Source: Escherichia phage vB_EcoS_SCS31. Taken from it: a stretch of 46,054 bases of DNA. The position numbers and the translations under genes were made by a program. Shown piece by piece: positions 9,398-29,232 of this stretch. The stretch lies in the sequence record ON081052; one strand, written 5' to 3'. Numbering within the stretch: the stretch's first letter is position 1; each line of letters starts with the position of its first letter. Below the pieces are notes generated by a model, which was given only the letters and a program-made list of their open reading frames with translations, ran no database searches and was not told where the DNA came from.

Positions 9398-9421
9398 AAC
9401 CCGCTTCGGCGGGTTTTTTAT
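9398..9421 (+). terminator. rho-independent terminator
   Basis: Hairpin ACCCGCTTCGGCGGGT + T-run. Confidence 0.6.
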
Positions 9422-9438
9422 TGCCTATCATCTCATCA

Positions 9439-9466
9439 TTGCGTGGTCTAAAAACTCGTGTATAAT
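9439..9466 (+). promoter_or_regulatory. sigma70-like promoter (TTGCGT-N16-TGTATAAT) upstream of capsid gene
   Basis: -35/-10 hexamers read directly. Confidence 0.45.
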
Positions 9467-9504
9467 GAACCCGTAGACACCTAAATGAAAAGGAACAATA
9501 AAGA

Positions 9505-10449
9505 ATGGCCATTAAATTTGATGCAGAACAAGCAAAAATCACCGCTCACCTCGAGCAAATGGGCGTAGAGAAAGCTGATGCCGCTGGTATCTGGACCGTT
9601 AAGCAGCTTACGGCTACTCTGAATCGCGCTTACGAAAAAGAATATGCGGACAACTCCGTTGTTAATATCTTCCCTGTAACCAATGAAATTCCTGGTCACG
9701 CGAAGTATTTCGAATATCCAGAATTTGATGGCGTTGGTATTGCTCAGATTATCGCTGATTACTCTGACGACCTGCCGCTGGTTGATGCTTTCATGACCGA
9801 GAAACAAGGCAAAGTTTTCCGTTTCGGTAACGCATTCCTGATTTCTACCGATGAAATTAAAGCTGGCGCCGCAACTGGTCAGTCTCTGTCAACTCGCAAA
9901 CAGGCTCTGGCTTTCGAAGCGCACGACAACCTGCTGGATAAACTGGTTTGGTCTGGTTCCACTCCTCACGGTATCGTAAGCGTATTCGATCAGCCTAACA
10001 TCAACAACGTTGTTGCAACGCCAAGCTGGAGCGAGCCGCTTAACGCAATCAATGACGTAACCGCGATGATTGATGCAGTTGAGACTTCAACTCAGGGTAT
10101 CCATCATGTGACTGATATTCTGCTTCCGGCATCCTCTCGTCGAGTAATGCAGCGCCTGGTTCCGAACACAACCCTGAGCTATGGTGAGTTGTTCACTCGT
10201 AACAACCCTGGCCTGACTATTCGTTTCCTGCAGTTCCTGGATAACTACGATGGCGCAGGTGGTAAAGCCGCTCTGGCGTTTGAGAAAAACCCGCTGAACA
10301 TGTCTATCGAGATTCCAGAAGCTACAAATGTACTTCCTGGTCAACCGAAAGATTTGCACTTTAAGTACCCGGTAACTTCTAAAGCGACAGGTTTGATTGT
10401 TTATCGTCCTCTTACGATGGCTGTAATCAAAGGAATCACCTTCGCGTAA
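9505..10449 (+). CDS. major capsid protein (putative)
   Basis: 314-aa ORF with strong RBS, flanked by terminators (high-expression context); position in head module. Confidence 0.7.
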   Translation: MAIKFDAEQAKITAHLEQMGVEKADAAGIWTVKQLTATLNRAYEKEYADNSVVNIFPVTNEIPGHAKYFEYPEFDGVGIAQIIADYSDDLPLVDAFMTEKQGKVFRFGNAFLISTDEIKAGAATGQSLSTRKQALAFEAHDNLLDKLVWSGSTPHGIVSVFDQPNINNVVATPSWSEPLNAINDVTAMIDAVETSTQGIHHVTDILLPASSRRVMQRLVPNTTLSYGELFTRNNPGLTIRFLQFLDNYDGAGGKAALAFEKNPLNMSIEIPEATNVLPGQPKDLHFKYPVTSKATGLIVYRPLTMAVIKGITFA

Positions 10450-10454
10450 TAAAT

Positions 10455-10478
10455 CGCCCTCTTCGGAGGGCTTTTTTA
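10455..10478 (+). terminator. rho-independent terminator
   Basis: Hairpin GCCCTCTTCGGAGGGC + T-run. Confidence 0.6.
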
Positions 10479-10541
10479 CGTCTGTACCAAATGGATTTGT
10501 TCGGTTATAATCACTCAATCAGATAAACAAAGGAGAAAAAA

Positions 10542-10787
10542 ATGATTCGTTTAGAACATACAGGCGCTTGCCTTATCGTTTACAAAGGTGAGAAATATTT
10601 ACCTGGCGACGCTTTCGAGGTTGATGTAATTTGTGACGGTCTTAAGCGCTTAATCGCAGAGGGTAAACTCACCATTGAAGGTGATGCTAAAGCAACAAAA
10701 CAGATCGCGCAAGAAGTTGTTAGCAAGAAAAAGCGCAAAGAACCGAAAACCATCTCCGAAGCTGAGACTGGTAACGAGTACAAATAA
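10542..10787 (+). CDS. hypothetical structural protein (81 aa)
   Basis: ORF track; strong RBS AAGGAGAAA; between two terminators. Confidence 0.3.
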   Translation: MIRLEHTGACLIVYKGEKYLPGDAFEVDVICDGLKRLIAEGKLTIEGDAKATKQIAQEVVSKKKRKEPKTISEAETGNEYK

Positions 10788-10792
10788 TAAAC

Positions 10793-10815
10793 AGGGCGCT
10801 TCGGCGTCCTTTATT
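10793..10815 (+). terminator. weak terminator-like hairpin
   Basis: GGGCGCTTCGGCGTCC + TTTATT. Confidence 0.35.
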
Positions 10816-11230
10816 GTATGGAGGTAACATGAATGATGCAATTTTGGCGTTTATGCGCTCGCTTGTTCCGGCGCTCAAGGCGGTGGATGACGAATCAATT
10901 AATGTATGGATTGATTTGGCGCGCCTCTACGTATGTGAGAGTAAGTTTGGAGCAGATGATGACAATGCGCTCGGGCTTTATGCGCTACACCTGATGCTCG
11001 CTGATGGCGCATTTAAGGGAGAGAATGAAGGACTGGAAACATACAGCCGTAGAATGGCAAGTTATTCACTGAGCGGTGAATTCTCTATCACCTATGATAA
11101 CCAATCAGCAATCCAGGGTGATTTATCATCTTCCTCCTGGGGTCGTATGTACAAAGCACTACTCCGCAAGAAAGGTGGCGGCTTTGGATTGATTACTTCC
11201 GCTGGTGGCGGTGGGTGCGGTTGCCGATGA
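10814..11230 (+). CDS. head-tail connector protein (putative)
   Basis: Position between capsid and major tail genes. Confidence 0.3.
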   Translation: MYGGNMNDAILAFMRSLVPALKAVDDESINVWIDLARLYVCESKFGADDDNALGLYALHLMLADGAFKGENEGLETYSRRMASYSLSGEFSITYDNQSAIQGDLSSSSWGRMYKALLRKKGGGFGLITSAGGGGCGCR

Positions 11231-12428: not shown

Positions 12429-13091
12429 ATGTATATGGCTCATTTCATCAATGGCACGCAGGTCTTCGTAGAAGGCTCTCGCGGAGCTGCAATTGACGTA
12501 ACTGCAATTTCTAACGCAGCTACCCCTGTTTTAACTGTATCTAGCGCGTCTAGCTTGGCTAAGGGTGACTACCTTCTGTTTACTTCCTCAGCTTCCACTC
12601 TTCTGGCTGACAAACAAGTACGAGTAACTGAAGTTTCTGGCACTTCGGTAACGGTTGAAGGTATTGATACCTCCAGCACCACCAAGTTCCCAGCTGGCTT
12701 AACTGGTGAAGTTGTTAAAATTACTTCATGGTTCGAAGTTCCGTGTGTTCAGGACGTTTCTACTGACGGCGGCGAACAGCAGTTCGTTAACTTCCAGTGC
12801 CTTTCTGATGACCGTGAACAGCAGATTCCGACTTATAAATCTGCCGTAACAAACACATTTACCTTTGCTCATGAGTACACTAACCCGGTTTATCCGGTTC
12901 TGCGTAACTACGATGAGTCTGGCCAGGTTGTTGCAATTCGCCTGTTCGTACCTCGCGCTCAGGAAATGCGTTTGCAGTCAGGCACTATCGCTTTCAACGA
13001 CACCCCTACCATTGGTGTTAACGAAATTGAAACGGTATCAATCGCGGTGTCAATTCGTGGTAGACTGTCATCTGTGGCAGCTGAAGTTTAA
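12429..13091 (+). CDS. major tail protein (putative)
   Basis: 220-aa Ser/Thr/Val-rich ORF followed by strong terminator; lambda V position. Confidence 0.5.
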   Translation: MYMAHFINGTQVFVEGSRGAAIDVTAISNAATPVLTVSSASSLAKGDYLLFTSSASTLLADKQVRVTEVSGTSVTVEGIDTSSTTKFPAGLTGEVVKITSWFEVPCVQDVSTDGGEQQFVNFQCLSDDREQQIPTYKSAVTNTFTFAHEYTNPVYPVLRNYDESGQVVAIRLFVPRAQEMRLQSGTIAFNDTPTIGVNEIETVSIAVSIRGRLSSVAAEV

Positions 13092-13098
13092 GACACAA

Positions 13099-13121
13099 AC
13101 CCTCTTCGGAGGGTTTTTTTA
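13099..13121 (+). terminator. rho-independent terminator
   Basis: Hairpin AACCCTCTTCGGAGGGTT + T7. Confidence 0.65.
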
Positions 13122-13124
13122 TTG

Positions 13125-13172
13125 ATAGCACTTTTTGCTAAAGAATTAATATCAATCTTCTGTATAGTTAAC
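13125..13172 (+). promoter_or_regulatory. phage promoter, palindromic motif class
   Basis: ATAGCACTTTTTGCTAAA ... TGTATAGTTAAC ... CATCGAAACGAAA. Confidence 0.5.
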
Positions 13173-13200
13173 TCATCGAAACGAAATGAGAGATTAAGAA

Positions 13201-13467
13201 ATGAATAGTAAGTTAGAAGTATTATCCGCACTTCGCGGCCCTATTTGTGTAGCTGCGCTGGTTGCCTTTTATGCAGCAGTTCAGATTATCAACCCAACAA
13301 GAGCGGAAACAGCAAACTCTGACGCGGCAAAATACAATTCGGTTTTCTCTGAGCACAAGGCAATCTGCGAGAAGGCTTCTGGTAGCAAGATTGATCAGGT
13401 TCTGAAGTATGGCAAGGAAATCTGCGTAGATATCGCGCACGACATTGCAAAAGAAAACACTAAGTAA
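13201..13467 (+). CDS. hypothetical moron protein with N-terminal hydrophobic/signal-like segment (88 aa)
   Basis: Own promoter copy; N-terminus ALVAFYAAVQIINPTRAETA hydrophobic; inserted between major tail and chaperone genes. Confidence 0.4.
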   Translation: MNSKLEVLSALRGPICVAALVAFYAAVQIINPTRAETANSDAAKYNSVFSEHKAICEKASGSKIDQVLKYGKEICVDIAHDIAKENTK

Positions 13468-13503
13468 TAGAATAATCATACTCTAAAAAAGGGGATCAAC
13501 AAA

Positions 13504-13818
13504 ATGGCTAAATTCAAACTTTCACTGGCGGCACTTCCTGACTTTAAGCTGCCTGTAAAATTCAAGCTGGCTAACGACCAGGATGTAGAGGTTATCTTTA
13601 CAGTCAAGCATAAGAAAACATCTGAGTTGCAGGAATTGCTTAGCAAGGAGGATTTGAGCACCAAAGAGCTTATCATGGCAATTGCCTCTGATTGGGACTT
13701 GGAGGAGGAATACAACGAGGATAACGTTAATGAGTTCTCAGACCTTTTCCCTTCCTCAACAGTTGCGCTTACTACCGCTTATATGCAAGCACTGGCTGGT
13801 CAGCGAGTAAAAAACTAA
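13504..13818 (+). CDS. tail assembly chaperone (lambda G-like)
   Basis: 104-aa acidic ORF just upstream of tape measure gene; ends at slippery heptamer. Confidence 0.55.
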   Translation: MAKFKLSLAALPDFKLPVKFKLANDQDVEVIFTVKHKKTSELQELLSKEDLSTKELIMAIASDWDLEEEYNEDNVNEFSDLFPSSTVALTTAYMQALAGQRVKN

Positions 13819-14138
13819 AGAGGGCGGTGTATCTACAGTACCAGTCAGAGCCAACTGATGCAGAACTGGAAGCTATTGGGATGCGCCGCTCTGATTACGA
13901 AGACGAAGAGCCCGAGATTTTACACTTCGACGACAATATGATGAAGGCGTGGGACATTTATTGTTCAATGGCTACACAGTGGCGAGTCGGAGCTAACGGA
14001 GCTACAGGCCTAGATTACAACGTGCTAAATTTCCTCTTTAGAGTGTATAATGTTTCTGAAGAAGAATTGGTACTCAGCGATTTACGCATCCTTGAAGCTA
14101 AGGCTCTAGAGATGATGGATAACCTGAGAAAAAAATAA
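13504..14138 (+). CDS. tail assembly chaperone GT-like frameshift fusion product
   Basis: Joining 13504-13815 with the -1 frame through 14138; conserved strategy in lambda-like tail modules. Confidence 0.5.
13809..13815 (+). other. -1 programmed ribosomal frameshift slippery heptamer A_AAA_AAC
   Basis: Heptamer in zero frame of 13504-13818 (codons AAA AAC then TAA); -1 frame continues into ORF 13827-14138, which has no ATG of its own. Confidence 0.6.
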
Positions 14139-14158
14139 CCCGCTTCGGCGGGTTTTCT
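14138..14158 (+). terminator. terminator-like hairpin
   Basis: ACCCGCTTCGGCGGGT + TTTTCT. Confidence 0.45.
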
Positions 14159-14173
14159 ATTATGGAGGCTTAG

Positions 14174-17152
14174 ATGGCAACAAATGAATTAGCCGGAATC
14201 ACACTAGCCGTAGACGTATCGCAGGTAGACAGGGGTACGCAATCACTACAGAAGTTCAGACAGGCCAACCAACAGGCTGCTTCTGGGATTAGTGAGTTCG
14301 TCAATGCTGAGCAGGTAGCAAAGACCCAGGCCAGAGACACGGCTCGTGCACTGGCTGAACAGCAAGCATCTTTAGCTAAATTGCAAACGGCCATTGACCC
14401 AACTGCGGCAAAGTTCCGTAAGCTGCAAGACGCAGCTGTAGGACTGGACAAGGCTTTCGCGGCTGGAGTGGTTCCTGATGAGGAGTTCTTCCGGTTAGGT
14501 GAGGCACTTGAAACGCAGAACGCAAAACTTGCTCGTTCACGTGCTGCGCTAACTGAAGAGGGGAGGGCAGCTGCACAGGCTGCAAAGGATAAGGCAAAAG
14601 CAAAGGCTGAGGCGGATAGGTTTATCGCATCACTTGAGCGACAGGCTCAAGCAGCGACATTGACGCGAGAGGAGTACCTAAAGTTACAAGCGGCCCAGCT
14701 TGGCGTTAGTTCTCAGGCTGCACCCATAATTGACAGAATAGCCGACGCATCACAGAAGGCAAACACGCAGCTAATTGCTCAGAGCAAGGCTTTTCAGAAA
14801 TCAGGATTAAGCGCCGGGCAATACAAGAATGCCATATCTCAACTACCAGCGCAGATTACTGATATTGGCACGTCGCTTGCTGGCGGGATTCCGATTTGGC
14901 TTATTGCAATTCAGCAAGGTGGTCAAATTAAGGATGCTTTTGGTGGTATTGGCAACACCTTTAGATTCGCGCTTGCAGCCTTAAACCCATTCAATGTAGC
15001 TGTTGGTGTTTTGGGTGGGGCGCTTGTAGCTCTTGGTGTTGGTGCAGCTCAAGCTGAAAGTGAATTCAGAGCATTAAACTCTGCGATTGCATTCTCCAAC
15101 AATTCTACAATCGCATCAATCTCGCAGGTTAGAGAGTTGGTTAGCTCTGTTTCTGATGCTACAGGAGCCACTAGGGGGCTTGTAACTAGCATCGCAACAA
15201 GCCTTATTGAACAAGGAAACCTTACGCTAACGCAGATTGATAAGATTACTAAATCTACATCCAGATGGGCGCAGTTGACAGGTAAGGATGCGAAGGAGAT
15301 TACTGGTTACTATAATCAGATTGCGAGTGACCCAATACAGGGATTGGTTGATTTGGATAAGCGCTTTAACTTCCTCACTCAGGGGCAGTTGACGACAATT
15401 GAAAACCTTAGGAAGACAAAGGGAGAAGTTGAGGCTGTAACTGCTGCTATTGATATCTTTAGTAAGTCACAGGAAGCCAACCTTAACGACATTGCAGCTC
15501 AATTGACGCCGCTTGAATTGGCATGGAATGATTTAAGAAAGTACATTTCTGATATCTGGGATGCAATTAGTCGCAGAACGGTTGGGGCGCTGAACCTGTT
15601 TGTTGATGTAATCGCCGGAACGATTGAACAGATCAGAGTATTCATTAACCAGGGTGACGTGCTGATTGGTGAATTCGTAATTAGCGCAACCCAGGCATTG
15701 CAGAACATCCCTGGCCTTGATGGTGTTGGTGATGATGTTATCAAGGGTCAGCAGAAGATTATCGATGCTGCCAAGAAGCAAAACCTTGAGCTAGAGAAGT
15801 CTATCAAGGAGCGAGATGCCAGAATTAGAGAGGGAGAACTTGGTTACGTTACTCGCAGGGAAAATAAGAATACCAATGAGCAATCAGGGACTGATGAGGA
15901 ATTTGCAAAAAGGAAGAAGGCACTTCATGATGAACTTGACGCGATCAAGAAGAACAGGAAAGAGGAAAATGGGAGGGTTAAGGAGCAAAGGGATCTAACA
16001 ATAGGTTATGAATCTGGCGTGCTGGCACTTCAGGCTCAACTCAAGGTGCTTCAGGAAAACAAGGATATCGGCGTAGTAATAAGCAATGAGCGCAAGCAGT
16101 ATCTTCAGGAGGTTGCCAAATTCCAGATTCTTGAGCAAAGACAACGTGATGGCTCGATAAAAAAAGAGCAGGCAAGACTCCTCGTTGAAAAGGATAAGGT
16201 TCTTGAGTTAGCCAGACAGAAAGCTGAGTTAGGCGATCAGATTGCTTTGCAGGAACGTGCCAATAAGTTAGCTGAAGATAACCGCAAGAAGATTCTTCAG
16301 ATTAACAATGAGGCAAGTAACATCGACTTGGGCGCTGGGTTATCATCTCGTGAGCAGCAGAGACTTAAAGAGATACAGGCTCTCAAATCCAATCAGGAAA
16401 ACGCTGGTGGTTCTCTTGATGATGTAGATTTCCAGCAATTACTGGAAGCAAGAAAGCAATTCTACAAGGATGAGGATAATCTCAGAGCAAACTGGCAATC
16501 CGGCGTACCAATCACTCTTGCCGACTGGGCTGAGAAGCGCACGGACTGCATCCAGATCGCTGAAGATTTAACACAACCGTCATTTGAAGGCATTACCGAC
16601 CAGATTACAAACCTTGTAACCACTGGCGAAACAAACTTCAGGGAGTTTACTGTTAGCATACTGAAGCAGATTGCTAAGATTGCAACCCAACTTCTTATTG
16701 TTAAGGCTATTGAGTCTAGCTTAAGTAGCTTTGGCGGAACTGGAGGTAACGCTATTGGTTCAATTGCTTCAGGTCTTGGTTTCGCTGGTGGCGGTTACAC
16801 TGGTGATGGTGGAAAATATCAGCCAGCAGGAACAGTACACCGCGGTGAGTTTGTATTCACAAAAGAAGCGACTAGCAGAATCGGCGTGAAAAACCTTTAC
16901 GCGCTAATGAAGGGATACGCAAACGGCGGCGCTGTAGGTGGTCCATCTGGTTATGCAAATGGCGGTTTGGTTTCTGGTGGAACAGATGTTAATGTTAGCG
17001 GCATCACTGTTAACGTAAACTCTGGTGTAGGTAGCGATCCGGAACAAGCTAAAGCGTTGCAGAGCGGAGTCAAGGCTATCGTAGCCGAAGAGATCGCTCA
17101 GTCTTTCCAGCAGGGTGGCAGGGCGTATGCCTATTTGAGAGGTTTTAACTAA
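14174..17152 (+). CDS. tail tape measure protein
   Basis: 992 aa, long Ala/Gln/Lys-rich helical regions, Gly-rich C-terminus; follows chaperone genes. Confidence 0.85.
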   Translation: MATNELAGITLAVDVSQVDRGTQSLQKFRQANQQAASGISEFVNAEQVAKTQARDTARALAEQQASLAKLQTAIDPTAAKFRKLQDAAVGLDKAFAAGVVPDEEFFRLGEALETQNAKLARSRAALTEEGRAAAQAAKDKAKAKAEADRFIASLERQAQAATLTREEYLKLQAAQLGVSSQAAPIIDRIADASQKANTQLIAQSKAFQKSGLSAGQYKNAISQLPAQITDIGTSLAGGIPIWLIAIQQGGQIKDAFGGIGNTFRFALAALNPFNVAVGVLGGALVALGVGAAQAESEFRALNSAIAFSNNSTIASISQVRELVSSVSDATGATRGLVTSIATSLIEQGNLTLTQIDKITKSTSRWAQLTGKDAKEITGYYNQIASDPIQGLVDLDKRFNFLTQGQLTTIENLRKTKGEVEAVTAAIDIFSKSQEANLNDIAAQLTPLELAWNDLRKYISDIWDAISRRTVGALNLFVDVIAGTIEQIRVFINQGDVLIGEFVISATQALQNIPGLDGVGDDVIKGQQKIIDAAKKQNLELEKSIKERDARIREGELGYVTRRENKNTNEQSGTDEEFAKRKKALHDELDAIKKNRKEENGRVKEQRDLTIGYESGVLALQAQLKVLQENKDIGVVISNERKQYLQEVAKFQILEQRQRDGSIKKEQARLLVEKDKVLELARQKAELGDQIALQERANKLAEDNRKKILQINNEASNIDLGAGLSSREQQRLKEIQALKSNQENAGGSLDDVDFQQLLEARKQFYKDEDNLRANWQSGVPITLADWAEKRTDCIQIAEDLTQPSFEGITDQITNLVTTGETNFREFTVSILKQIAKIATQLLIVKAIESSLSSFGGTGGNAIGSIASGLGFAGGGYTGDGGKYQPAGTVHRGEFVFTKEATSRIGVKNLYALMKGYANGGAVGGPSGYANGGLVSGGTDVNVSGITVNVNSGVGSDPEQAKALQSGVKAIVAEEIAQSFQQGGRAYAYLRGFN

Positions 17153-17196
17153 TAGCACTAAATGGTAAAGCCAAAAGGATTTGGCTTGCTATAATC
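17151..17196 (+). promoter_or_regulatory. phage promoter, degenerate palindromic motif class (AATAGCACTAAATGGTAAAG ... TATAAT)
   Basis: Motif read directly upstream of HNH gene. Confidence 0.4.
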
Positions 17197-17223
17197 AACT
17201 CATTAAAAGCATGAGGTGATAAA

Positions 17224-17721
17224 ATGAACTGGAATGATATTTTTGAGTATAGAGATGGGGTTCTTTATTGGAAGATTTCAACAAGCAACAAATCAAGAAA
17301 AAAGATTGGTGATGTTGCGGGTAATCAAATGAATGATGGATACATAATGGTTCAGGCATTTGGCAAAAGAATGCTTGCTCATAGGGTTGTTTGGGAAATG
17401 CATAATGGCAGAATAACTAATGGCATGCATATAGACCATTTAAACCACATAAGGAATGACAACAGGATAGAAAACCTAAGACTGGTGTCAAGAACAGAAA
17501 ACAACAGGAATAAATCACTGTCAAAAGTAAACAAAACAGGTGTTTCAGGAGTTAGATTAAAAGATGGGCTATTTGAGGTTTCGATAGGTGGAGAAAAAAA
17601 CAAGACTTACATAGGAAGGTTCTACACACTGGATGAGGCTAGAGCAGCAAGGAAATGCGCAGAATTTGAACTTAATTACCACAATAATCATGGGGATTGC
17701 AATGGCGATAGACACATTTAA
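17224..17721 (+). CDS. HNH homing endonuclease
   Basis: HNH core HRVVWEMHNG...HIDHLNH...RIENLRLVSRTENNRNK; paralog of 39194-39688. Confidence 0.8.
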   Translation: MNWNDIFEYRDGVLYWKISTSNKSRKKIGDVAGNQMNDGYIMVQAFGKRMLAHRVVWEMHNGRITNGMHIDHLNHIRNDNRIENLRLVSRTENNRNKSLSKVNKTGVSGVRLKDGLFEVSIGGEKNKTYIGRFYTLDEARAARKCAEFELNYHNNHGDCNGDRHI

Positions 17722-18052
17722 TTACTGCACTCAAATCCAAAATGGAGGCGGCTCGTTCTCTAATACCAACAACGTGCGAATTGTTAGCTTTGGCAATGGT
17801 TTTGAGCAAAGAGGCACTGGTGGCTATAACACAAGCGTCAGAACATACTCAATGACATACACTAACAAGGACTGGCGCGATGTGATGGATTTCTGCTTAA
17901 ACCATATCATCACTCCATTCTTCTGGACTACACCGCAGGGCGATACTTCAATGTTTGTTATTCAGCAGGATAGCATTTCAGTTACGCCAATTAGCAGCGA
18001 AGTTCAGAATGTAAACATGCAATTCGTGGAAGTATTTAGCTCAATGCGTTAA
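17690..18052 (+). CDS. minor tail protein (lambda M-like, putative)
   Basis: Position after tape measure; track ORF 17633 overlaps HNH 3' end, start uncertain (17633/17690/17702). Confidence 0.4.
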   Translation: MGIAMAIDTFNYCTQIQNGGGSFSNTNNVRIVSFGNGFEQRGTGGYNTSVRTYSMTYTNKDWRDVMDFCLNHIITPFFWTTPQGDTSMFVIQQDSISVTPISSEVQNVNMQFVEVFSSMR

Positions 18053-18089: not shown

Positions 18090-18845
18090 ATGTTAAGTCC
18101 AAAGTTTGAAAATCAGTTACAAAGCCTTTTCCCTGGCGAGATTGTGACACTAATCCAGGTAGACGGAACATCGTTTGGCTCTAACGTTTATTCGTTCCAC
18201 AATGAGAACATTTCATACACACCTGAAGAAATCATGCTAGCCCAAATGAATGGCGAGCCACTACCAGAGAAAACCATCACCTTCCGTGGTGAAGAGTACG
18301 GCCCAAGACCATTTGGAATCTCTGGCATCAATATGACCTCTGACGGCAAGGCCAACAAAGTGACGCTAACAGTATCAAACGTAGACCAGCGCATTAGCGC
18401 ATTGATTCGCACTTACAATGGATTGGTCAAGGCTAAGGTTACTATCTGGATTACCACGCGTGATAACATTAATGAAGACGGAAGCATTGCTGATGGGGAC
18501 TATCGCCGATTCGTTTACTTCATTGAGCGACCAAAGCAAGTTGATTACAAAACCGCATCATTTGAGCTTAGTAGTCCGATGGATATGGATGGCATTTATA
18601 TTCCAGCGAGACTTGTTCAGTCCGTTTGCTATTGGTCGTCAAGGGGGTGGTATCGTAGCGGTAATGGTTGCGACTATGCTGGCAATCGTTATTTTGACAA
18701 GGATGACAATCCAGTGTCAGACCCTTCACTTGACTTCTGCGCCGGAACGGTAAATAGCTGTAAGATTAGGTTTGGTGAGAATAATCAGCTTTCATTTGGT
18801 GGGTGCGCAGCAGCGAGCCTTCAAGCTAAAGCTAATCAGAGTTAA
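18090..18845 (+). CDS. minor tail protein (lambda L-like, putative)
   Basis: Position; C-terminal cysteine cluster (CYWSS...C...C...C) consistent with Fe-S-binding gpL-like proteins; ATG 18090 with RBS GGAGA. Confidence 0.55.
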   Translation: MLSPKFENQLQSLFPGEIVTLIQVDGTSFGSNVYSFHNENISYTPEEIMLAQMNGEPLPEKTITFRGEEYGPRPFGISGINMTSDGKANKVTLTVSNVDQRISALIRTYNGLVKAKVTIWITTRDNINEDGSIADGDYRRFVYFIERPKQVDYKTASFELSSPMDMDGIYIPARLVQSVCYWSSRGWYRSGNGCDYAGNRYFDKDDNPVSDPSLDFCAGTVNSCKIRFGENNQLSFGGCAAASLQAKANQS

Positions 18846-18892
18846 ATAGCACGAATTGCTAAAGACGATTTAAAAAGATGGGGTATAGTTAC
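18846..18892 (+). promoter_or_regulatory. phage promoter, palindromic motif class
   Basis: ATAGCACGAATTGCTAAAG ... TATAGTTAC ... AATCGAAACGAGA. Confidence 0.5.
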
Positions 18893-18911
18893 CCAATCGA
18901 AACGAGAGGAG

Positions 18912-19274
18912 ATGAAAAAAATGTTCCAAATTAAATTTAACGGATACAAAAAAGACAAAGAAGAGTGCGCTGGTTTGTTTTTTGTTGGCCACAATTACCC
19001 CTGCAGTGTTGTTGACTCAAACAGATACTATCAGACGCAGGATGAGAATGGCAATATTGTAAAGTTTAAAAGTATTTTTCGTGATGCTTGTTACGACTTT
19101 TCAAGAATTGATACTCAGAGCAAGGTATTAGACGAGCATGATAACAAGATGAAATATCGAATGAATGGTGTTGATGTCACTAAGTCATTCTTTGATGATA
19201 AGCTACTGGAAGTTGAGATGCTTAAATCAAGAGATGTTTCAGTATTTATAGATTTTGAGGTTTATTTTGAATAA
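18912..19274 (+). CDS. hypothetical moron protein (120 aa)
   Basis: Own promoter copy; inserted between L-like and K-like tail genes. Confidence 0.4.
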   Translation: MKKMFQIKFNGYKKDKEECAGLFFVGHNYPCSVVDSNRYYQTQDENGNIVKFKSIFRDACYDFSRIDTQSKVLDEHDNKMKYRMNGVDVTKSFFDDKLLEVEMLKSRDVSVFIDFEVYFE

Positions 19275-19332
19275 ACAAAATTAGTGTTAAACTAGGTCAA
19301 TCGAAAGGTTGGCCTTTTTTATTGGAGATAAA

Positions 19333-20091
19333 ATGTTAACACCAAAAGTTAAACTGCAAATCTTCCAGCACGCAAAAGATGTTTACCCTCATGAGTGCTG
19401 TGGAGTTGTTACGCAGAAGGGTCGCGCTCAGAAATACCACAGAATCAAGAACGCCAGCAAAGACCCTGAAAATGAGTTTATCCTTGATTCAAATGAGTAT
19501 GCAGATTTTCTCTTTGAGTTGGCTCACAATGAATCTATTGTTTACGTAGTTCACTCCCACACAGGTGATGGAGCCACAACAAGGCCAAGCCCTGCGGATA
19601 TTTGCAGCTGCAATGAGTGCGAGATTCCTTACGTTATTGTAAGCATACCAGAGGGAGATATGAGAATCCTTGAACCATCAACCATGCCGCTGATTGGGAG
19701 ACCTTGGGGGCTTGGTAGCTTTGATTGCTGGGAGCTGGTTATGTCGTTTCACAAGAAATACGGAGTCAAACTGAATGACTACCGAGTTAATTACCCGTGG
19801 TGGGAGAAACGGTACAATGAAAATATCTATGACGATAATTGGATTAATGAAGGATTTGAGGTAGTAAAAACTTCAGATATTCCGATTGGCTCAATGATTA
19901 TGATGCAGGTCCAGAGTGAAGTCACAAACCACGCCGGAATCTACATTGGCAACAACAGATTCATTCATCACCTTTATGGTAAAATGAGTTCCGTTGATAT
20001 CTACTCCGATTACTGGCGCGAGCGCACTGTGCGAATAGTTCGCCATAAGGATTTACCAGAGGATGTAAGTTATGACCAAGAAACTGATTGA
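19333..20091 (+). CDS. tail tip protein (lambda K-like; MPN/JAB + NlpC/P60-like motifs)
   Basis: HECCGVV ... HSH motif resembling JAB/MPN; position; ATG 19333 with RBS GGAGA (track TTG start rejected). Confidence 0.6.
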   Translation: MLTPKVKLQIFQHAKDVYPHECCGVVTQKGRAQKYHRIKNASKDPENEFILDSNEYADFLFELAHNESIVYVVHSHTGDGATTRPSPADICSCNECEIPYVIVSIPEGDMRILEPSTMPLIGRPWGLGSFDCWELVMSFHKKYGVKLNDYRVNYPWWEKRYNENIYDDNWINEGFEVVKTSDIPIGSMIMMQVQSEVTNHAGIYIGNNRFIHHLYGKMSSVDIYSDYWRERTVRIVRHKDLPEDVSYDQETD

Positions 20092-20644
20092 CATTAAATT
20101 AGGCCTGTCCATAGGCCGTAAGTTTGGAAAGATTCACCAAATGGCGGTGGGTAGTGTGCCTGAGGCAATGCGAGCGCTTTGCTCTCAGATTCCTGCTTTC
20201 AAGGAGTTCATGAATAGCCATGTCGGTCAGAACACAAGATACGCTGTGTTCGTTGACGGAAAAAATGTGAACGAGCATCGAATCGCTGATTTTAGTGCCG
20301 TTCAGGAAATACGCATTTTACCAATCCCTCAGGGCCGCAAGTCCGGTGGGTTGTTTCAGACAATTTTAGGCGCCGCACTTATCACAGTTGGTATCATTTC
20401 TGGGCAGATTTATCTTGTTGGCGCTGGTGTGTCTTTAGCGGCGGGAGGTATTGCGCAACTACTTTCACCGCAAGCAACTGGATTAAAGACCCAGAACAAC
20501 CAAACTAGCAATAGGGCATCTTACGCATTCGGCTCGGCTGTAAACACAGTAGCCGCTGGTTATCCAGTTTGCCTACCTTATGGCTACCGAACTGTTGGGG
20601 GCTCTGTGTTTAGTGCAGGCAGCTACGCTGAAGACAATGCTTAA
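20072..20644 (+). CDS. tail assembly protein (lambda I-like, putative)
   Basis: 190 aa with C-terminal hydrophobic Gly/Ala-rich segment; position. Confidence 0.5.
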   Translation: MTKKLIDIKLGLSIGRKFGKIHQMAVGSVPEAMRALCSQIPAFKEFMNSHVGQNTRYAVFVDGKNVNEHRIADFSAVQEIRILPIPQGRKSGGLFQTILGAALITVGIISGQIYLVGAGVSLAAGGIAQLLSPQATGLKTQNNQTSNRASYAFGSAVNTVAAGYPVCLPYGYRTVGGSVFSAGSYAEDNA

Positions 20645-20650
20645 ATATCA

Positions 20651-20675
20651 TACCCGCCTAGTGCGGGTTTTTTAT
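20651..20675 (+). terminator. rho-independent terminator
   Basis: ACCCGCCTAGTGCGGGT + T6. Confidence 0.6.
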
Positions 20676-20685
20676 TTAGTGTAGA

Positions 20686-24145: not shown

Positions 24146-25105
24146 GTACATGTTTGGTATGTATGGAACTGCCATTGATATGTTTGTATCTAAATGGAAA
24201 TGTGCGCCAGTCCGTGTTGAATAGTTTCCAATTACACTACCAAACCCAGACCTGACAGATCCATTAGACATTACGACCCCTTTGTATCTAAGGTTGTTAT
24301 ACCCGCCAGTTACTCGAGTCGTAGCTCCAGTCCTGAGTATCGGGAAGTATCCGCCACCTATCGACTGATATCCATTGCTTATTTGTATAAATCCACTAAG
24401 TACGAATGGTCGCCTAACGCTTGAAAAAACAATCTGACCAGAGCTATTTGACATTGTTAGTCCTGGTCCGGCTGGTGGGGGTTCATTTCTGAATATCACC
24501 AGCTGAACATAAGTACTTGCCGAAACATCATCTGTACCTCCGTAGGTTATATCCCTGCACCATATTGTTGATCCATCTGATTCAAGTGATACGTTTGGAT
24601 TATCCCACTTGCCGAATGGTATGCCGCTAACTGGTAGCGATGCCGCCCCGTTAACCTGTATGCCTCCAACCCATGCTGCTGACATTAGTCTCGAGTTGCT
24701 TGATATAGCAAGGAAATCAGTTGAGTTCTCAACGAGTATCCCTGGGCTTGATGAAGGTGATGCTGGTAGAATTTCAAAACAATTACCCGCAAAGTCAATT
24801 ATTCGACCATTGGCACCATTGAAGTTACTAAGTGTTATCCTGCCAACTCCGTCATTAACCTTTTGGAATCCGTTCATGTAATAAACTTCAGGTATAACAT
24901 CGTAAGCATCAACGTGGACTGCCTTCGTTGGTAGGCAGAAAGCCGTAGAGCCAGGAGACATTGTCAATCCAAAATCCCACGAACTTGCTGGGGTTGAAAG
25001 TCCATTGGTATTTATTGATCCAGTCACAGCAGGTGCCCTTAATCCTGCCGTTATTTCCATCGCTGGTCTTCCGTCATTGAGGTCAATCAATATACCCTGC
25101 GGCAT
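24143..25105 (-). CDS. beta-rich Gly/Ser/Asn-rich protein, possible receptor-binding/tail-associated protein (320 aa)
   Basis: ATG 25105 with RBS AAGGAG, start overlaps lipoprotein stop (TAATG coupling); composition only. Confidence 0.4.
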   Translation of the reverse strand: MPQGILIDLNDGRPAMEITAGLRAPAVTGSINTNGLSTPASSWDFGLTMSPGSTAFCLPTKAVHVDAYDVIPEVYYMNGFQKVNDGVGRITLSNFNGANGRIIDFAGNCFEILPASPSSSPGILVENSTDFLAISSNSRLMSAAWVGGIQVNGAASLPVSGIPFGKWDNPNVSLESDGSTIWCRDITYGGTDDVSASTYVQLVIFRNEPPPAGPGLTMSNSSGQIVFSSVRRPFVLSGFIQISNGYQSIGGGYFPILRTGATTRVTGGYNNLRYKGVVMSNGSVRSGFGSVIGNYSTRTGAHFHLDTNISMAVPYIPNMY

Positions 25106-25356
25106 TATTTCCACTCCTTGCTGCCATGATCTGCAATAGAGCCACCGTAACCGCCGCCAGCCTTGCTTTCAATTCCGGCGTAGCGAACATCAACCTCACC
25201 AGCCGGAACAACTACGCCACCTTTCCATTTAGCTACGCACACACCATTTGCTTGTGTTGCACACCAACCATCCGGGCGAGGACCAGATGAGCAACCTACC
25301 ATCATGATTGCTGCTGCGGCGATGATTGAAAGTTTGATTAATTTAGTCATTTTCAT
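25105..25356 (-). CDS. outer-membrane lipoprotein, Cor/Llp-like superinfection-exclusion candidate
   Basis: N-terminus [25 protein letters not shown]: signal peptide plus lipobox Cys; small size; adjacent to tail fibre region. Confidence 0.5.
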
Positions 25357-25384
25357 GTTCCTTAGAATGTGTGTTTCGTTTTGA

Positions 25385-25436
25385 TGGAGTAATCATATCT
25401 TAACTGTTAGGTTTGTCTTTAGCTATTCGTGCTATT
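25385..25436 (-). promoter_or_regulatory. phage promoter, palindromic motif class (minus strand)
   Basis: Reverse complement reads AATAGCACGAATAGCTAAAG ... TATGATTAC ... CATCAAAACGAAAC. Confidence 0.45.
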
Positions 25437-25679
25437 CAACCATCTGTTATATTTATCCCTCTCCTTGATTGCCTTTTCAAGTGACTTGAATCTTAAAAGT
25501 AGCGGCATACAGTCAACACCCATAATTAAGGATTCGTCGCAGCTATTTGCGCCAGTCAGCCAAAGAGAGAAGTATTGTTGATCGAGGCCGTAGTTCCTGT
25601 CTTTATTGACCCTAACGCTAACAACTTTAAATTTTAAACCAGCCAACTTAACCTTATCTATAAATTCTGACTTATTCAT
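25419..25679 (-). CDS. hypothetical small protein (start trimmed from track ORF)
   Basis: Track ORF N-terminus overlaps promoter copy at 25737; internal ATG 25679 with RBS GGAGCAA. Confidence 0.35.
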   Translation of the reverse strand: MNKSEFIDKVKLAGLKFKVVSVRVNKDRNYGLDQQYFSLWLTGANSCDESLIMGVDCMPLLLRFKSLEKAIKERDKYNRWLNSTNS

Positions 25680-25699
25680 CTTGTTGCTCCTTTTTAGTT

Positions 25700-25753
25700 T
25701 ACCTGGAAATGGTACATCACCCATGAGATTTGTCTTTAGCAATTAGTGCTATT
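25700..25753 (-). promoter_or_regulatory. phage promoter, palindromic motif class (minus strand)
   Basis: Reverse complement reads AATAGCACTAATTGCTAAAG. Confidence 0.45.
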
Positions 25754-26225
25754 GGTTACGCGTAACCGATGTAACTCGATGTATACCATATCCATCCGCG
25801 GGAAATCAGTTACGCCATATTGCGCACAGTTACGCTTTAGTTACACTAAAATATCTATATATATAAAGGGTTTAGATAATTATTATTATTATCTATATAT
25901 ATAGTGTAACTGCTGCAACTCATAATATTGGTATGTTGCGTTTGTTTTTCTATATGATGATTATCTTTGTTATCTGGCGTGGCTAAATGGATGTAGGGTG
26001 TGGTGCACCACATAAAAGATACCGTTACATTGGTTACATGTGAGTTACATTGAGGATTTATGCGGTCTGCGGTGGCTAAAAACGTAACAAAGGAGAGCCT
26101 ATACATGAAATTACGTCATTTGACGCGTAATCATAATTTATTAATCGGTGATATCTATTGGACTGCGCTGCCACCCTCTCATATGATCAACCCATCGAAA
26201 GCAAACAACCATAGAGAGACGCAAA

Positions 26226-26420
26226 ATGGCTTACTTCATCATTAAAGAGAAAAACAACGCACTATTCGGCGACTGCTACTTCGGAGGTGAGGCAGGTTAC
26301 ACTACAGATAAGAATGAGGCAGACCGATTTGAAACGAAGGAAGATGCCAAATCTGTCCTGACCGGATACTTCACAGAAGAAGATTTTAAATTGGTTAAGA
26401 TTGTTAAGGTTAAGGAGTGA
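26226..26420 (+). CDS. hypothetical protein (64 aa)
   Basis: ORF track. Confidence 0.35.
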   Translation: MAYFIIKEKNNALFGDCYFGGEAGYTTDKNEADRFETKEDAKSVLTGYFTEEDFKLVKIVKVKE

Positions 26421-26423
26421 ATC

Positions 26424-26621
26424 ATGAAGGCTTTTATAGACATAAATAAGTCACCATACAACGACGAACCGGATCCTGAGGTAAGAATAAGGATAAAATT
26501 TAAAACTGGAAGAGAGATAAACATAACAACAACATGCTCTGGTATATCAAAAGCGATAATGGGATGCAGTGAAATCCCTGTAGATGTATCACTTAGAAAT
26601 GTAGAGGTTAAAATAAAATGA
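26424..26621 (+). CDS. hypothetical protein (65 aa)
   Basis: ORF track; ATGA overlap with next gene. Confidence 0.35.
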   Translation: MKAFIDINKSPYNDEPDPEVRIRIKFKTGREINITTTCSGISKAIMGCSEIPVDVSLRNVEVKIK

Positions 26622-28815: not shown

Positions 28816-29215
28816 AGTCTGTTTCAAATGTGGTGGGCTTAAGCCCATCACGGAGTTCTATAAACATAAAGCCATGGCTGACGGACGTGTAAATAAGTGT
28901 AATGAATGCAATAATGTTGATGTTAAATCAAATAGAAAATCAAAAATAGAATATTACAGAGAGTACGATAGAGAAAGGGGCAATAGACAGAAGGATGGTT
29001 ACGTTAAGGAGTATAGATCAAGAAACCCCATAAAATATAATTGCCACACGATTTTAAATAACGCTATAAGGGATGGTAAGATCAATAAAAAACCTTGCGA
29101 GGTTTGCGGGAATGATAAGGCGGTAGCTCATCATGATGATTACTCAAAACCAATGGATGTAAGATGGCTATGCCAAGCTCACCATATGCAATGGCACGCA
29201 GAAAACGGAGAATGA
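28748..29215 (+). CDS. HNH endonuclease (putative; start probably internal)
   Basis: C-terminal CEVCG ... HHDDYSKP ... WLCQAHHMQWH zinc-finger/HNH motif. Confidence 0.55.
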   Translation: MKTIFRLLLLVFSTVCQIFMYYKVCFKCGGLKPITEFYKHKAMADGRVNKCNECNNVDVKSNRKSKIEYYREYDRERGNRQKDGYVKEYRSRNPIKYNCHTILNNAIRDGKINKKPCEVCGNDKAVAHHDDYSKPMDVRWLCQAHHMQWHAENGE

Positions 29216-29232
29216 TTAAACGGATAAAAGAT

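What the first reader, a model, noticed from the sequence alone, without database searches (positions are those of the whole stretch)
13125..13467. Moron encoding a small signal-peptide-like protein inside the tail module
An 88-aa ORF with its own promoter copy lies between the major tail gene and the chaperone. Its hydrophobic N-terminus followed by a polar domain suggests a secreted or membrane-anchored protein, for example for superinfection exclusion or host-envelope modulation, rather than a virion component.
Basis: inference. Interest (0 to 1): 0.5.

Follow-up and report, generated by a model that had tools for sequence, protein, structure and literature searches.

The report
Small exported protein cassette in tail genes
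A virulent T1-like coliphage carries, between its tail-tube and tail-chaperone genes, a real, conserved 88-residue gene for a small protein sent to the cell envelope; it sits in a swappable promoter-bearing slot and its function is still unknown.

Summary
ORF 13201-13467 (88 aa) is a real gene under purifying selection (dN/dS 0.04-0.25). It lies between the major tail protein and the tail assembly chaperone. It follows a terminator and one copy of a promoter-like element that recurs about 18 times in the window.

The window is a Braunvirinae (Rtp-like, virulent) phage, collinear with ACG-M12, where this gene is gp52, annotated hypothetical (PHROG 22925, unknown function).

Other Drexlerviridae have nothing in this slot. 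Braunvirinae fill it with either this 82-88-aa family or an unrelated 126-128-aa lipoprotein (Rtp34 type). One metagenomic phage fuses this family's N-terminus to the lipoprotein's mature domain, which argues that the N-terminus is an export module. SignalP and TMHMM were positive for the homologue in phage MSK. The roughly 50-aa mature part has two invariant cysteines and models as a helical hairpin, with no known relatives.

"Moron" fits only partly: there is no terminator of its own, the GC content is average, and the phage is not temperate. A second conserved sigma-70-like promoter for the chaperone genes overlaps the ORF's 3' end.

Function is inferred only. A periplasm-facing accessory protein is likely, possibly receptor-independent exclusion. 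Receptor masking is already done by the Rtp45 homologue elsewhere in the genome.

The parts
12429..13091 (+). Major tail (tube) protein gene, the upstream neighbour
   Evidence: Pfam PF08813, E 2.4e-68; PHROG 584; annotated 12435-13091 in ACG-M12
13097..13122 (+). Intrinsic terminator (8-bp GC-rich stem, loop TTCG, T run) ending the major tail transcript
   Evidence: Terminator scan. Fold -11.6 kcal/mol, z -2.4. The hairpin (stem, loop and T run) is invariant in 10 related phages.
13125..13184 (+). P1, one copy of the repeated promoter-like element. Dyad TAGCA-N5-TGCTA at 13126-13140; -10-like TATAGT at 13163-13168; conserved leader ATCGAAACGA at 13175-13184.
   Evidence: 11 matches against 0.03 expected. 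Repeat families D1, D2 and D6. About 18 copies with fixed geometry. The dyad, the -10 and the leader are conserved while the 17-nt spacer varies across 10 phages. Not called by the strict sigma-70 scan. Function is not shown.
13188..13192 (+). Shine-Dalgarno-like GAGAG, 8 nt before the ATG
   Evidence: Read from the sequence; conserved in relatives
13201..13467 (+). ORF88, equivalent to ACG-M12 gp52 and a member of PHROG 22925: a small exported accessory protein
   Evidence: ORF list. PHROG match E 1.9e-24. dN/dS 0.04-0.25. 81 phage records. 100% identical to a protein of phage vB_EcoS_SCS31.
13201..13314 (+). N-terminal export module (aa 1-38): basic n-region, hydrophobic core at aa 13-30, invariant N31-P32, and candidate signal-peptidase sites TRA|E (after aa 35) or ETA|N (after aa 38)
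   Evidence: Heuristics. Alignment A1. SignalP and TMHMM on the MSK homologue. The chimera P0049 carries this module on a lipoprotein's mature domain. Cleavage in this allele is uncertain.
13315..13464 (+). Predicted periplasmic domain (aa 39-88) with invariant C56 and C75 and invariant G61, Y70, K63 and Q66
   Evidence: Alignment A1. AlphaFold2 gives helix-turn-helix, mean pLDDT 77.8. No matches by fold or sequence.
13445..13473 (+). P2, a sigma-70-like promoter (TTGCAA, 17 nt, TAGAAT) overlapping the last codons and the stop codon of ORF88. Probably the ancestral promoter of the chaperone genes.
   Evidence: Promoter scan, 9 of 12 matches. Conserved in all type A alleles, with TATAAT in CY1, ES and IMM-001, and an extended -10 in TR1 and L019. 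PhiSITE promoter annotated at the same place in CEB_EC3a.
13504..14138 (+). Tail assembly chaperone genes (G-like 13504-13818; T-like 13827-14138), the downstream neighbours, co-transcribed with any read-through from P1
   Evidence: PF08748 and DUF1799; frameshift product annotated in OzMSK
14137..14154 (+). Next intrinsic terminator, the first one downstream of ORF88
   Evidence: Terminator scan

Best explanation
ORF88 encodes a small accessory protein whose C-terminal ~50 residues face the periplasm. It is either released by signal peptidase or held in the inner membrane by its N-terminal helix.

The gene is the cargo of a compact cassette (promoter-like element P1, conserved leader, ORF). 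In the Braunvirinae lineage this cassette was inserted between the major-tail terminator and the older promoter (P2) of the tail-chaperone genes. The conserved P1/leader on the left and P2 on the right act as recombination anchors, so different cargos and alleles are exchanged between phages while the flanking tail genes stay nearly identical.

Shown by sequence and comparison: the anatomy, the purifying selection, the modular N-terminus, the restriction to Braunvirinae and the allele replacement.

Inferred: the promoter activity, the export itself, and a disulfide between the two invariant cysteines.

My committed guess for function is that the periplasmic domain binds a host or incoming-phage envelope component during lytic infection, and that it acts independently of the outer-membrane receptor. 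The most likely version is a second, post-adsorption layer of superinfection exclusion that blocks tail-tip or DNA passage through the periplasm and inner membrane, as HK97 gp15 or T4 Imm and Sp do.

The confidence score of 0.45 is for the whole statement. I put the anatomy and export part at about 0.8 and the exclusion mechanism at about 0.3.
For: - **Real gene.** dN/dS is 0.04-0.25. Fifteen columns of the mature region are invariant, including both cysteines.
- **Insertion.** The slot is empty in Tempevirinae (Warwickvirus orkinos, Tlsvirus LL5, Henuseptimavirus Henu7), the Klebsiella phage Smiley, Vilniusvirus NBD2 and Rogunavirus JK06. It is filled in all Braunvirinae inspected.
- **P1.** It is a copy of a fixed-geometry element that also precedes the Rtp45-type exclusion lipoprotein gene at 25105-25350 (-) and many small accessory genes.
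- **Export.** The n-region is basic, the hydrophobic core is 15-21 residues long, NP is invariant, and most alleles have AxA|N. SignalP and TMHMM were positive for MSK_000011.
- **Natural chimera.** P0049 consists of aa 1-33 of this family joined to aa 19-126 of the TR1 lipoprotein (80.6% identity). It sits in the same slot with the same P1 and P2.
- **All cargos are envelope proteins.** The Rtp34 and TR1 lipoproteins have lipoboxes LAGC and LTGC, and CY1 carries an additional 46-aa membrane ORF.
- **Allele replacement.** The ORF is 44-58% identical to the 82-aa alleles, while the flanking tail proteins of the three relatives compared (ACG-M12, OzMSK, PCEc3) are 94-99% identical. The megablast alignment breaks exactly over the ORF. 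Within an allele group, dS of the ORF is lower than dS of the chaperone gene.
- **Receptor independence.** Type A occurs in LptD-dependent phages (JeanPiccard, OzMSK) and in JulesPiccard, whose receptor is one of FhuA, BtuB, YncD or TolC. Type B occurs in the LptD-dependent phages Rtp and AugustePiccard.
- **Precedent.** HK97 gp15 is a small inner-membrane exclusion protein encoded next to the tail chaperone genes (PMC3594210).
Against: - There is no experimental datum on this protein or any homologue.
- No homology to any exclusion protein or any known family was found.
- The phage already has a dedicated exclusion lipoprotein.
- In this allele the conserved cleavage position has Glu at -3, so cleavage is uncertain.
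- The full-length AlphaFold model is poor (pLDDT 58).
- P1 lacks a canonical -35 at sigma-70 spacing and has not been tested.
- Read-through from P1 into the chaperone genes means the gene is not an isolated unit.
- Fast allele turnover fits conflict-type functions in general, not exclusion in particular.
Confidence: 0.45

Rival explanations
1. Receptor-masking exclusion protein of the Cor, Llp or Rtp45 kind: it binds the periplasmic face of the phage's outer-membrane receptor and stops adsorption to infected cells and to lysis debris.
For: It is small and exported, and it uses the same promoter-like element as the Rtp45-type lipoprotein gene. The alternative cargo in the slot is a lipoprotein.
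Against: ORF88 has no lipobox. It is not next to the receptor-binding gene, where such genes sit. The window already has an Rtp45-type lipoprotein at 25105-25350. The cargo type does not follow receptor specificity.
Confidence: 0.08
2. Envelope or lysis-timing modulator: a periplasmic regulator such as the T4 RI antiholin, or an inhibitor of a host periplasmic enzyme or stress pathway, that tunes the infected cell rather than excluding other phages.
For: The size and layout match RI-type proteins: an N-terminal signal or anchor followed by a ~50-aa helical periplasmic domain. The hydrophobic core is Ala-rich and only moderately hydrophobic (KD 1.6-2.1). Established knowledge of T4 RI supplies the comparison.
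Against: It lies 28 kb from the lysis cassette at 41170-42236. It shows no similarity to RI or any solved structure. Fast allele replacement is unusual for a housekeeping regulator.
Confidence: 0.15
3. Counter-defence or host-manipulation factor acting on a membrane or periplasmic host defence or transport system. It would be host-strain-specific, which would explain the alternative cargos.
For: The slot is swappable and holds unrelated envelope cargos under purifying selection. The family is restricted to one phage subfamily.
Against: There is no match to defence-related models and no host-range correlation is available. This explanation is entirely inferential.
Confidence: 0.2
4. Tail-assembly factor or minor virion component, encoded where it is because it works with the tail tube, the chaperones or the tape measure.
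For: Its position is inside the tail gene block, and it can be co-transcribed with the chaperone genes because no terminator lies before 14137.
Against: It has an export signal, whereas tails assemble in the cytoplasm. It is absent from other Drexlerviridae with homologous tail proteins. It can be replaced by an unrelated lipoprotein. Its allele is uncoupled from the flanking tail proteins. Two of the other genes preceded by this element (6039-6347, 18921-19274) are annotated as virion structural proteins, so location and promoter type alone do not settle the matter. MSK_000011 is not among the proteins the MSK paper names in its gel-band analysis, but that analysis matched bands by mass only and is weak evidence.
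Confidence: 0.05
5. Spurious or decaying ORF with no function, kept only because the DNA carries the promoters P1 and P2.
For: The C-terminal IAKENTK motif coincides with the P2 -35 and spacer, so part of the apparent protein conservation could reflect constraint on the DNA.
Against: dN/dS is well below 1 along the whole ORF. The ORF stays open in all listed family proteins from phage genomes and metagenomes, apart from a few shorter entries. Residues are invariant far from P2.
Confidence: 0.02

Closest known systems
HK97 gp15 moron (YebO-like inner-membrane superinfection exclusion protein)
   Same: Both are small proteins with one N-terminal hydrophobic helix. Both are encoded as an add-on inside a siphophage tail gene block next to the tail assembly chaperone genes. 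Both are candidates to act at the envelope without touching the receptor (PMC3594210).
   Different: No sequence relation was found; ORF88 has no Pfam hit at all. HK97 is temperate and expresses gp15 from the prophage, whereas this phage is virulent. gp15 lies between the chaperone and tape-measure genes, whereas ORF88 lies between the tube and chaperone genes. ORF88 has no terminator of its own and an average GC content.
Rtp45, Cor and Llp periplasmic exclusion lipoproteins of small siphophages
   Same: All are small exported proteins of virulent T1- or T5-like phages. In this window the Rtp45-type gene is preceded by the same promoter-like element as ORF88.
   Different: ORF88 has no lipobox. 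It sits at a different locus (tail tube/chaperone rather than downstream of the gpJ/receptor-binding locus). It has no sequence similarity to them, and its cargo type is independent of the receptor used.
Rtp34-type lipoprotein (Rtp, AugustePiccard, RobRod40, MM01, TR1)
   Same: It occupies exactly the same slot with the same P1 and leader. It is also exported, also has two conserved cysteines in the mature part, and also has no known function. A natural chimera joins the ORF88-type N-terminus to this mature domain.
   Different: It is 126-128 aa long with a lipobox. BLASTP finds no similarity to ORF88. The profile-profile comparison gives only 39% probability and is biased because the chimera is in the alignment.
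PHROG 22925 / ACG-M12 gp52 / MSK_000011 (the family itself)
   Same: ORF88 is a member (E 1.9e-24). It differs from ACG-M12 gp52 by one residue.
   Different: Nothing differs. The family is annotated only as hypothetical or unknown function.
T4 RI antiholin (signal-anchor-release periplasmic regulator)
   Same: Similar size and layout: an N-terminal weakly hydrophobic signal followed by a short helical periplasmic domain. This comparison rests on my own knowledge.
   Different: No sequence or fold match. It is not in the lysis cassette.

Membership tests
Moron (as defined for HK97/HK022; criteria taken from PMC3594210) | An extra gene compared with related genomes | tested here: met
   The slot is empty in orkinos, LL5, Smiley, NBD2, Henu7 and JK06.
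Moron (as defined for HK97/HK022; criteria taken from PMC3594210) | Its own promoter | tested here: inconclusive
   A copy of the repeated promoter-like element is present at 13125-13184. It is not a canonical sigma-70 promoter, and its activity cannot be tested here.
Moron (as defined for HK97/HK022; criteria taken from PMC3594210) | Its own terminator downstream | tested here: not met
   No terminator lies between 13467 and 13504. The next one is at 14137-14154, after the chaperone genes.
Moron (as defined for HK97/HK022; criteria taken from PMC3594210) | Base composition different from the neighbouring genes | tested here: not met
   GC is 44.2% against 43.5% for the genome, the 52nd percentile of 267-nt windows.
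Moron (as defined for HK97/HK022; criteria taken from PMC3594210) | Expressed from a repressed prophage of a temperate phage | tested here: not met
   This is a virulent Drexlerviridae phage. No integrase appears in the collinear annotation, and MSK is described as virulent.
Sec-type exported protein (cleavable signal peptide or signal anchor) | Basic n-region, hydrophobic core, helix breaker, and small residues at -3 and -1 | tested here: met
   K4 and R12; the core at aa 13-30; invariant N31-P32. AxA|N is present in most alleles, while this allele has TRA|E or ETA|N. Whether this allele is cleaved is unresolved.
Sec-type exported protein (cleavable signal peptide or signal anchor) | A positive call by a trained predictor | not testable with these tools
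   SignalP and TMHMM are not available here. The literature reports both as positive for the 82-aa homologue MSK_000011 (PMC8421802).
Sec-type exported protein (cleavable signal peptide or signal anchor) | The N-terminus is interchangeable with a known export signal | tested here: met
   The chimera P0049 replaces the TR1 lipoprotein signal with this N-terminus.
Bacterial lipoprotein (as for the Cor, Llp and Rtp45 exclusion proteins) | Lipobox [LVI][ASTVI][GAS]C at the end of the signal peptide | tested here: not met
   No type A allele has a lipobox. Rtp34 and TR1 have LAGC and LTGC.
Bacterial lipoprotein (as for the Cor, Llp and Rtp45 exclusion proteins) | Encoded next to the receptor-binding protein gene downstream of the gpJ homologue | tested here: not met
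   ORF88 is about 11 kb upstream of that locus. The Rtp45-type gene is at 25105-25350 (-).
YebO / HK97 gp15 family | Sequence membership in the Pfam YebO family | tested here: not met
   No Pfam family matches at E <= 1.
YebO / HK97 gp15 family | Blocks phage DNA entry when expressed | not testable with these tools
   This needs plating, adsorption and DNA-entry assays.
PHROG 22925 | Profile match over most of its length | tested here: met
   E 1.9e-24; aa 17-88 against profile positions 11-82 of 82.
Virion structural protein | Present in purified particles | not testable with these tools
   No mass-spectrometry data exist for this gene. The MSK gel-band assignment does not name MSK_000011, but it matched bands by mass only.

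The most novel reading that the evidence does not exclude
In Braunvirinae, the gap between the tail-tube and chaperone genes is a dedicated exchange site for periplasm-targeted effectors. It is bracketed by two promoters that double as recombination anchors. Signals and mature domains are themselves shuffled there, as the chimera P0049 shows.

The cargos (the ORF88 family and the Rtp34 family, each with a conserved cysteine pair) would form a previously unrecognised, receptor-independent class of lytic-phage exclusion or envelope-takeover proteins. They might, for example, intercept the incoming tape-measure or tail-tip complex, or interfere with oxidative maturation of envelope proteins such as LptD.
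Probability: 0.15. Interest if true: 0.6.

Novelty: new member of a known kind. Interest (0 to 1): 0.38.

Why it matters
Rtp-like phages are common laboratory and fermentation contaminants and are candidate therapeutic phages, yet more than half of their genes have no known function.

This work narrows one of those genes from "hypothetical" to a testable statement: a small periplasm-facing protein encoded in a swappable, promoter-bearing slot, with an unrelated lipoprotein as its natural alternative and a natural signal-swap chimera.

If it proves to be a second, receptor-independent exclusion layer, it would affect the design of phage cocktails, because related phages could exclude each other. 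It would also add a lytic-phage counterpart to the HK97 gp15 paradigm. If it does not, the result still shows how virulent phages move accessory genes as cassettes anchored on promoters.

Tried and rejected
- **Family searches.** Pfam, NCBIfam and PADLOC scans of ORF88 gave nothing meaningful.
- **Exhaustive sequence search.** phmmer against 1.84 billion representative proteins found one real relative, the 82-aa allele. The profile search found only the same family plus the chimera.
- **Structure.** The full-length AlphaFold2 model was poor (pLDDT 58). The mature-domain model was acceptable (77.8), but Foldseek against the PDB and against viral structures returned no matches, and the PDB sequence profile search returned nothing. 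I therefore drew no conclusion about function from the fold.
- **Type A versus type B homology.** BLASTP found nothing. hhalign gave 39% probability and was biased by the chimera in the alignment. I left this as inconclusive.
- **RNA elements.** Rfam gave only a sub-threshold rsmX hit over the terminator, which I rejected as chance. The leader hairpin is weak (-3.3 kcal/mol) and I did not pursue it.
- **Literature.** The Rtp genome paper could not be read. Text searches for rtp34, for the promoter motif and for Drexlerviridae transcriptomes found nothing relevant.
- **Sigma-54 reading of the dyad.** I considered it and rejected it, because the GG/GC spacing is 10 rather than 12 and the first dinucleotide is AG.
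- **Plain sigma-70 reading of P1.** I considered TTGCTA as the -35 and rejected it, because the spacing to TATAGT is 22 nt.
- **Receptor-linked exclusion.** I considered it and downgraded it, because the cargo type does not follow the receptor.
Full report
**1. What is there**

The window is a T1-like siphophage of the subfamily Braunvirinae. It is collinear base for base with Escherichia phage ACG-M12 (46,054 nt, no indels). The protein of interest is 100% identical to a protein of phage vB_EcoS_SCS31.

The ORF at 13201-13467 (+, 88 aa) exists as described. It corresponds to ACG-M12 gp52, annotated 'hypothetical protein'. Upstream lies the major tail protein gene (PF08813, E 2.4e-68). Downstream lie the two tail assembly chaperone reading frames (PF08748, DUF1799) and the 992-aa tape measure gene.

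The major tail gene is followed by an intrinsic terminator at 13097-13116 plus a T run. The first terminator after ORF88 is at 14137-14154, beyond the chaperone genes.

**2. The 'promoter copy'**

Its pattern is ATAGCAC-nnn-TTGCTAAAG, then about 17 variable bases, then TATAGTTA, then ATCGAAACGA.

The 19-mer occurs 11 times with up to 3 mismatches, against 0.03 expected. A broader scan finds about 18 copies on both strands. In each, a -10-like hexamer sits at a fixed offset of 38 nt and a start codon lies 70-85 nt downstream.

The copies precede small accessory ORFs, both HNH endonuclease genes, the Rtp45-type exclusion lipoprotein gene at 25105-25350 (-), and ORF88.

In ten related phages the dyad TAGCA-N5-TGCTA, the TATAGT hexamer and the leader are conserved, while the spacer varies in sequence but not in length. 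That is the footprint of a functional site.

It is not a textbook sigma-70 promoter. TTGCTA and TATAGT are 22 nt apart and the strict scan does not call it. By my arithmetic the centre of the dyad falls near -42 relative to a start inferred from TATAGT. That is where a class II activator would bind, but this is inference only.

**3. A second promoter**

A sigma-70-like site (TTGCAA, 17 nt, TAGAAT; 13445-13473) overlaps the last codons and the stop codon of ORF88.

It is conserved in every allele of the family, although the proteins are only about 50% identical elsewhere. In CY1, ES and IMM-001 the -10 improves to TATAAT. TR1 and the metagenomic locus L019, which carry a different cargo, have an extended -10 (TGATACAAT) at the same place. 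Another group's annotation predicts a promoter here in CEB_EC3a.

Drexlerviridae without the extra gene have terminator, then a short promoter-like sequence (TGTTATAAT in JK06), then the chaperone gene. I therefore read P2 as the ancestral chaperone promoter. I read the segment P1 + leader + ORF as the piece inserted between the terminator and P2. The overlap also explains the oddly conserved C-terminal peptide IAKENTK.

**4. It is a real gene, and an add-on**

Pairwise dN/dS is 0.04-0.25 wherever synonymous sites are not saturated.

tblastn finds one copy in each of 81 phage records, nearly all named as coliphages (two carry Pseudomonas or Campylobacter names); every one inspected belongs to Braunvirinae. 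The chaperone gene, by contrast, is found in 853 records across the family.

In orkinos, LL5, Smiley, NBD2, Henu7 and JK06 the tube and chaperone genes are separated by only 75-100 nt.

An exhaustive search of 1.84 billion representative proteins finds only the 82-aa form of the same family. A profile search finds 48 clusters, all phage-sized contigs or fragments. The family is PHROG 22925, function unknown.

**5. The slot is a swap site**

Rtp, AugustePiccard, RobRod40, MM01 and TR1 carry a 126-128-aa lipoprotein at exactly this position, behind the same P1 and leader. Their lipoboxes are LAGC and LTGC. Rtp34 and the TR1 protein are 31% identical (E 4e-14). CY1 carries an additional 46-aa membrane ORF in front of its type A gene.

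Between the window and OzMSK or PCEc3 the flanking tail proteins are 94-99% identical, whereas ORF88 is only 44-58% identical to the 82-aa alleles. The megablast alignments break over just the ORF body. Within one allele group the ORF has a lower dS than the adjacent chaperone gene, as expected if alleles spread by recombination.

GC content is average (44.2%), so the gene is long resident in this phage group rather than a recent import.

**6. Evidence for export**

The N-terminus has a basic n-region (K4, R12), a 15-21-residue uncharged core, and invariant Asn-Pro at its end. In most alleles an AxA|N site follows 6-8 residues later. In the window's allele that position reads ETA|N, with an unfavourable Glu at -3, and there is an alternative site TRA|E. 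Cleavage of this particular allele is therefore open.

The MSK genome paper reports that SignalP 4.1 and TMHMM were both positive for MSK_000011. In that paper MSK_000010 is the major tail protein and MSK_000014 the 992-aa tape measure, so 000011 is the 82-aa homologue (PMC8421802).

The strongest new evidence is a natural chimera. The metagenomic protein P0049 (141 aa) sits in the same slot between a PF08813 gene and a PF08748 gene. Its residues 1-33 are of the ORF88 type. Its residues 34-141 are 80.6% identical to residues 19-126 of the TR1 lipoprotein. In other words, the lipoprotein signal has been replaced by this N-terminus.

The charge distribution follows the positive-inside rule for an N-in, C-out orientation, as I read it from the sequence.

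**7. The mature domain**

Residues 39-88 contain 13 of the family's invariant positions, including C56 and C75 together with G61, K63, Q66 and Y70.

AlphaFold2 on this part gives two helices joined at the invariant glycine, with mean pLDDT 77.8. The full-length model is unreliable (pLDDT 58). Foldseek against the PDB and viral models, and a PDB sequence profile search, return nothing.

A disulfide, either within one chain or between chains, is plausible in the periplasm but is not shown.

**8. What it probably does**

The steps that are shown:
- the gene is selected;
- it is specific to Braunvirinae;
- it has a modular export-type N-terminus;
- it sits in an exchangeable cassette;
- it is uncoupled from the flanking tail proteins.

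The inferred step is that its periplasmic domain binds an envelope component during infection.

Receptor masking is unlikely to be its job. This group has the Rtp45-type lipoprotein for that, encoded beside the receptor-binding gene and shown structurally to bind LptDE (PMC12685063). Cargo type also does not follow receptor. JeanPiccard and OzMSK (type A) and Rtp and AugustePiccard (type B) all use LptD. JulesPiccard (type A) is among the phages assigned to FhuA, BtuB, YncD or TolC.

The closest functional precedent is HK97 gp15. It is a small inner-membrane protein encoded beside the tail chaperone genes, and it blocks DNA entry without touching the receptor (PMC3594210).

I therefore favour a receptor-independent, post-adsorption exclusion or envelope-conditioning role, at roughly 0.3 for exclusion specifically. 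The main rivals are a lysis or envelope regulator and a counter-defence factor. A virion role is unlikely.

**9. Is it a moron?**

Only partly. It is an add-on with a plausible promoter of its own. But it has no terminator of its own and no compositional difference from its neighbours. Prophage expression is impossible in a virulent phage.

'Promoter-bearing accessory cassette of a lytic phage' describes it better. The same element precedes other low-GC inserts within the structural block: 6039-6347, the HNH gene at 17224-17721, and 18921-19274.

**10. Provenance caveat**

Against ACG-M12 the window shows 3,058 substitutions and not one indel. The substitutions are arranged as blocks of 0% mismatch alternating with blocks of 5-27% mismatch.

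ORF88 lies in a 264-nt mismatch-free run (13193-13456). The edges of that run coincide with the conserved leader and with P2, which are the limits of the segment that is too divergent between alleles to align.

This is what a reference-guided consensus would produce. The physical linkage of this allele to these flanks in this isolate should therefore be checked. The biology does not depend on it, because ACG-M12 and the de novo contig L016 carry 88-aa alleles in the same context.

**11. Verdict**

The gene was already catalogued as hypothetical, and its signal peptide has been noted in passing in one paper. The new findings are the slot architecture, the alternative cargo, the signal-swap chimera and the embedded chaperone promoter. 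Interest is moderate.

Noticed in passing
window, + strand near 1306, 2116, 2747, 5966, 13125, 17152, 18846, 33663, 36163, 37204, 39122, 39691, 40779; - strand near 46013, 44831, 25752, 25435: A repeated ~60-nt promoter-like element with fixed geometry. It consists of the dyad TAGCA-N5-TGCTA, then TATAGT-like 38 nt after the start of the element, then the conserved leader ATCGAAACGA, with a start codon 70-85 nt downstream. The dyad centre falls near -42, which suggests an activator- or regulator-dependent phage promoter class rather than a plain sigma-70 promoter. A candidate regulator gene lies at 33144-33650 (-).
   Followed up: partly
whole window compared with NC_019404 (ACG-M12): The two sequences have the same length (46,054 nt) with zero indels. 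About 49% of the genome lies in blocks with no mismatch (for example 1-3543, 9313-10823, 13193-13456, 17096-17763, 18612-19346, 24363-26621, 28434-31789 and 39650-46054). These alternate with blocks of 5-27% mismatch. The transition/transversion ratio is 1.19. The pattern looks like a reference-guided consensus or a chimeric assembly rather than a natural pair of genomes.
   Followed up: partly
L019:4001-4426 (protein P0049, ENA metagenome contig k141_176850): A natural chimera in the tube/chaperone slot. The N-terminal 33 residues are of the ORF88 type. They are fused to the mature domain of the TR1-type lipoprotein (80.6% identity), replacing its lipobox signal. The joint falls at a shared Gly-Glu.
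   Followed up: yes
L007:~620-760 (phage CY1, between P1 and the type A gene): An additional 46-aa ORF, made up almost entirely of hydrophobic residues (MILIGMLTAFFYYATGL...), is inserted behind P1 and ahead of the 82-aa gene. It is a third envelope-type cargo in the same slot.
   Followed up: no
window 17152-17721 and 39122-39688: There are two HNH endonuclease genes, each behind a copy of the promoter-like element. One interrupts the tail block between the tape measure and the minor tail genes. Their 5' ends share a 51-nt stretch at 84% identity, and the first has low GC (36.5%).
   Followed up: no
window 5966-6347 and 18846-19274: Two further low-GC (33%) small genes lie inside the structural block, each behind a copy of the same element. 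Both are annotated as virion structural proteins by similarity to phiEB49. They look like cassettes of the same kind as ORF88.
   Followed up: no
window 13186-13197: A three-codon upstream ORF (ATG AGA GAT TAA) ends 3 nt before the ORF88 start codon. It overlaps the Shine-Dalgarno sequence and a weak leader hairpin (CTCAT...ATGAG). It is conserved in the type A relatives. Its significance is unknown.
   Followed up: no
window 6382-6416, 9388-9422, 13088-13122, 14127-14161, 20642-20676: A family of similar terminators (AACCCGCTTCGGCGGGTTTTTT-like) cuts the late region into short units. This includes one between the chaperone genes and the tape measure gene.
   Followed up: no
phage database records PP134917.1 and a Campylobacter-labelled record; protein P0039: Near-identical Rtp-like coliphage sequences are deposited under Pseudomonas syringae, Campylobacter and Nitratidesulfovibrio names. 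These are probably laboratory contaminants, in keeping with the reputation of this phage group.
   Followed up: no
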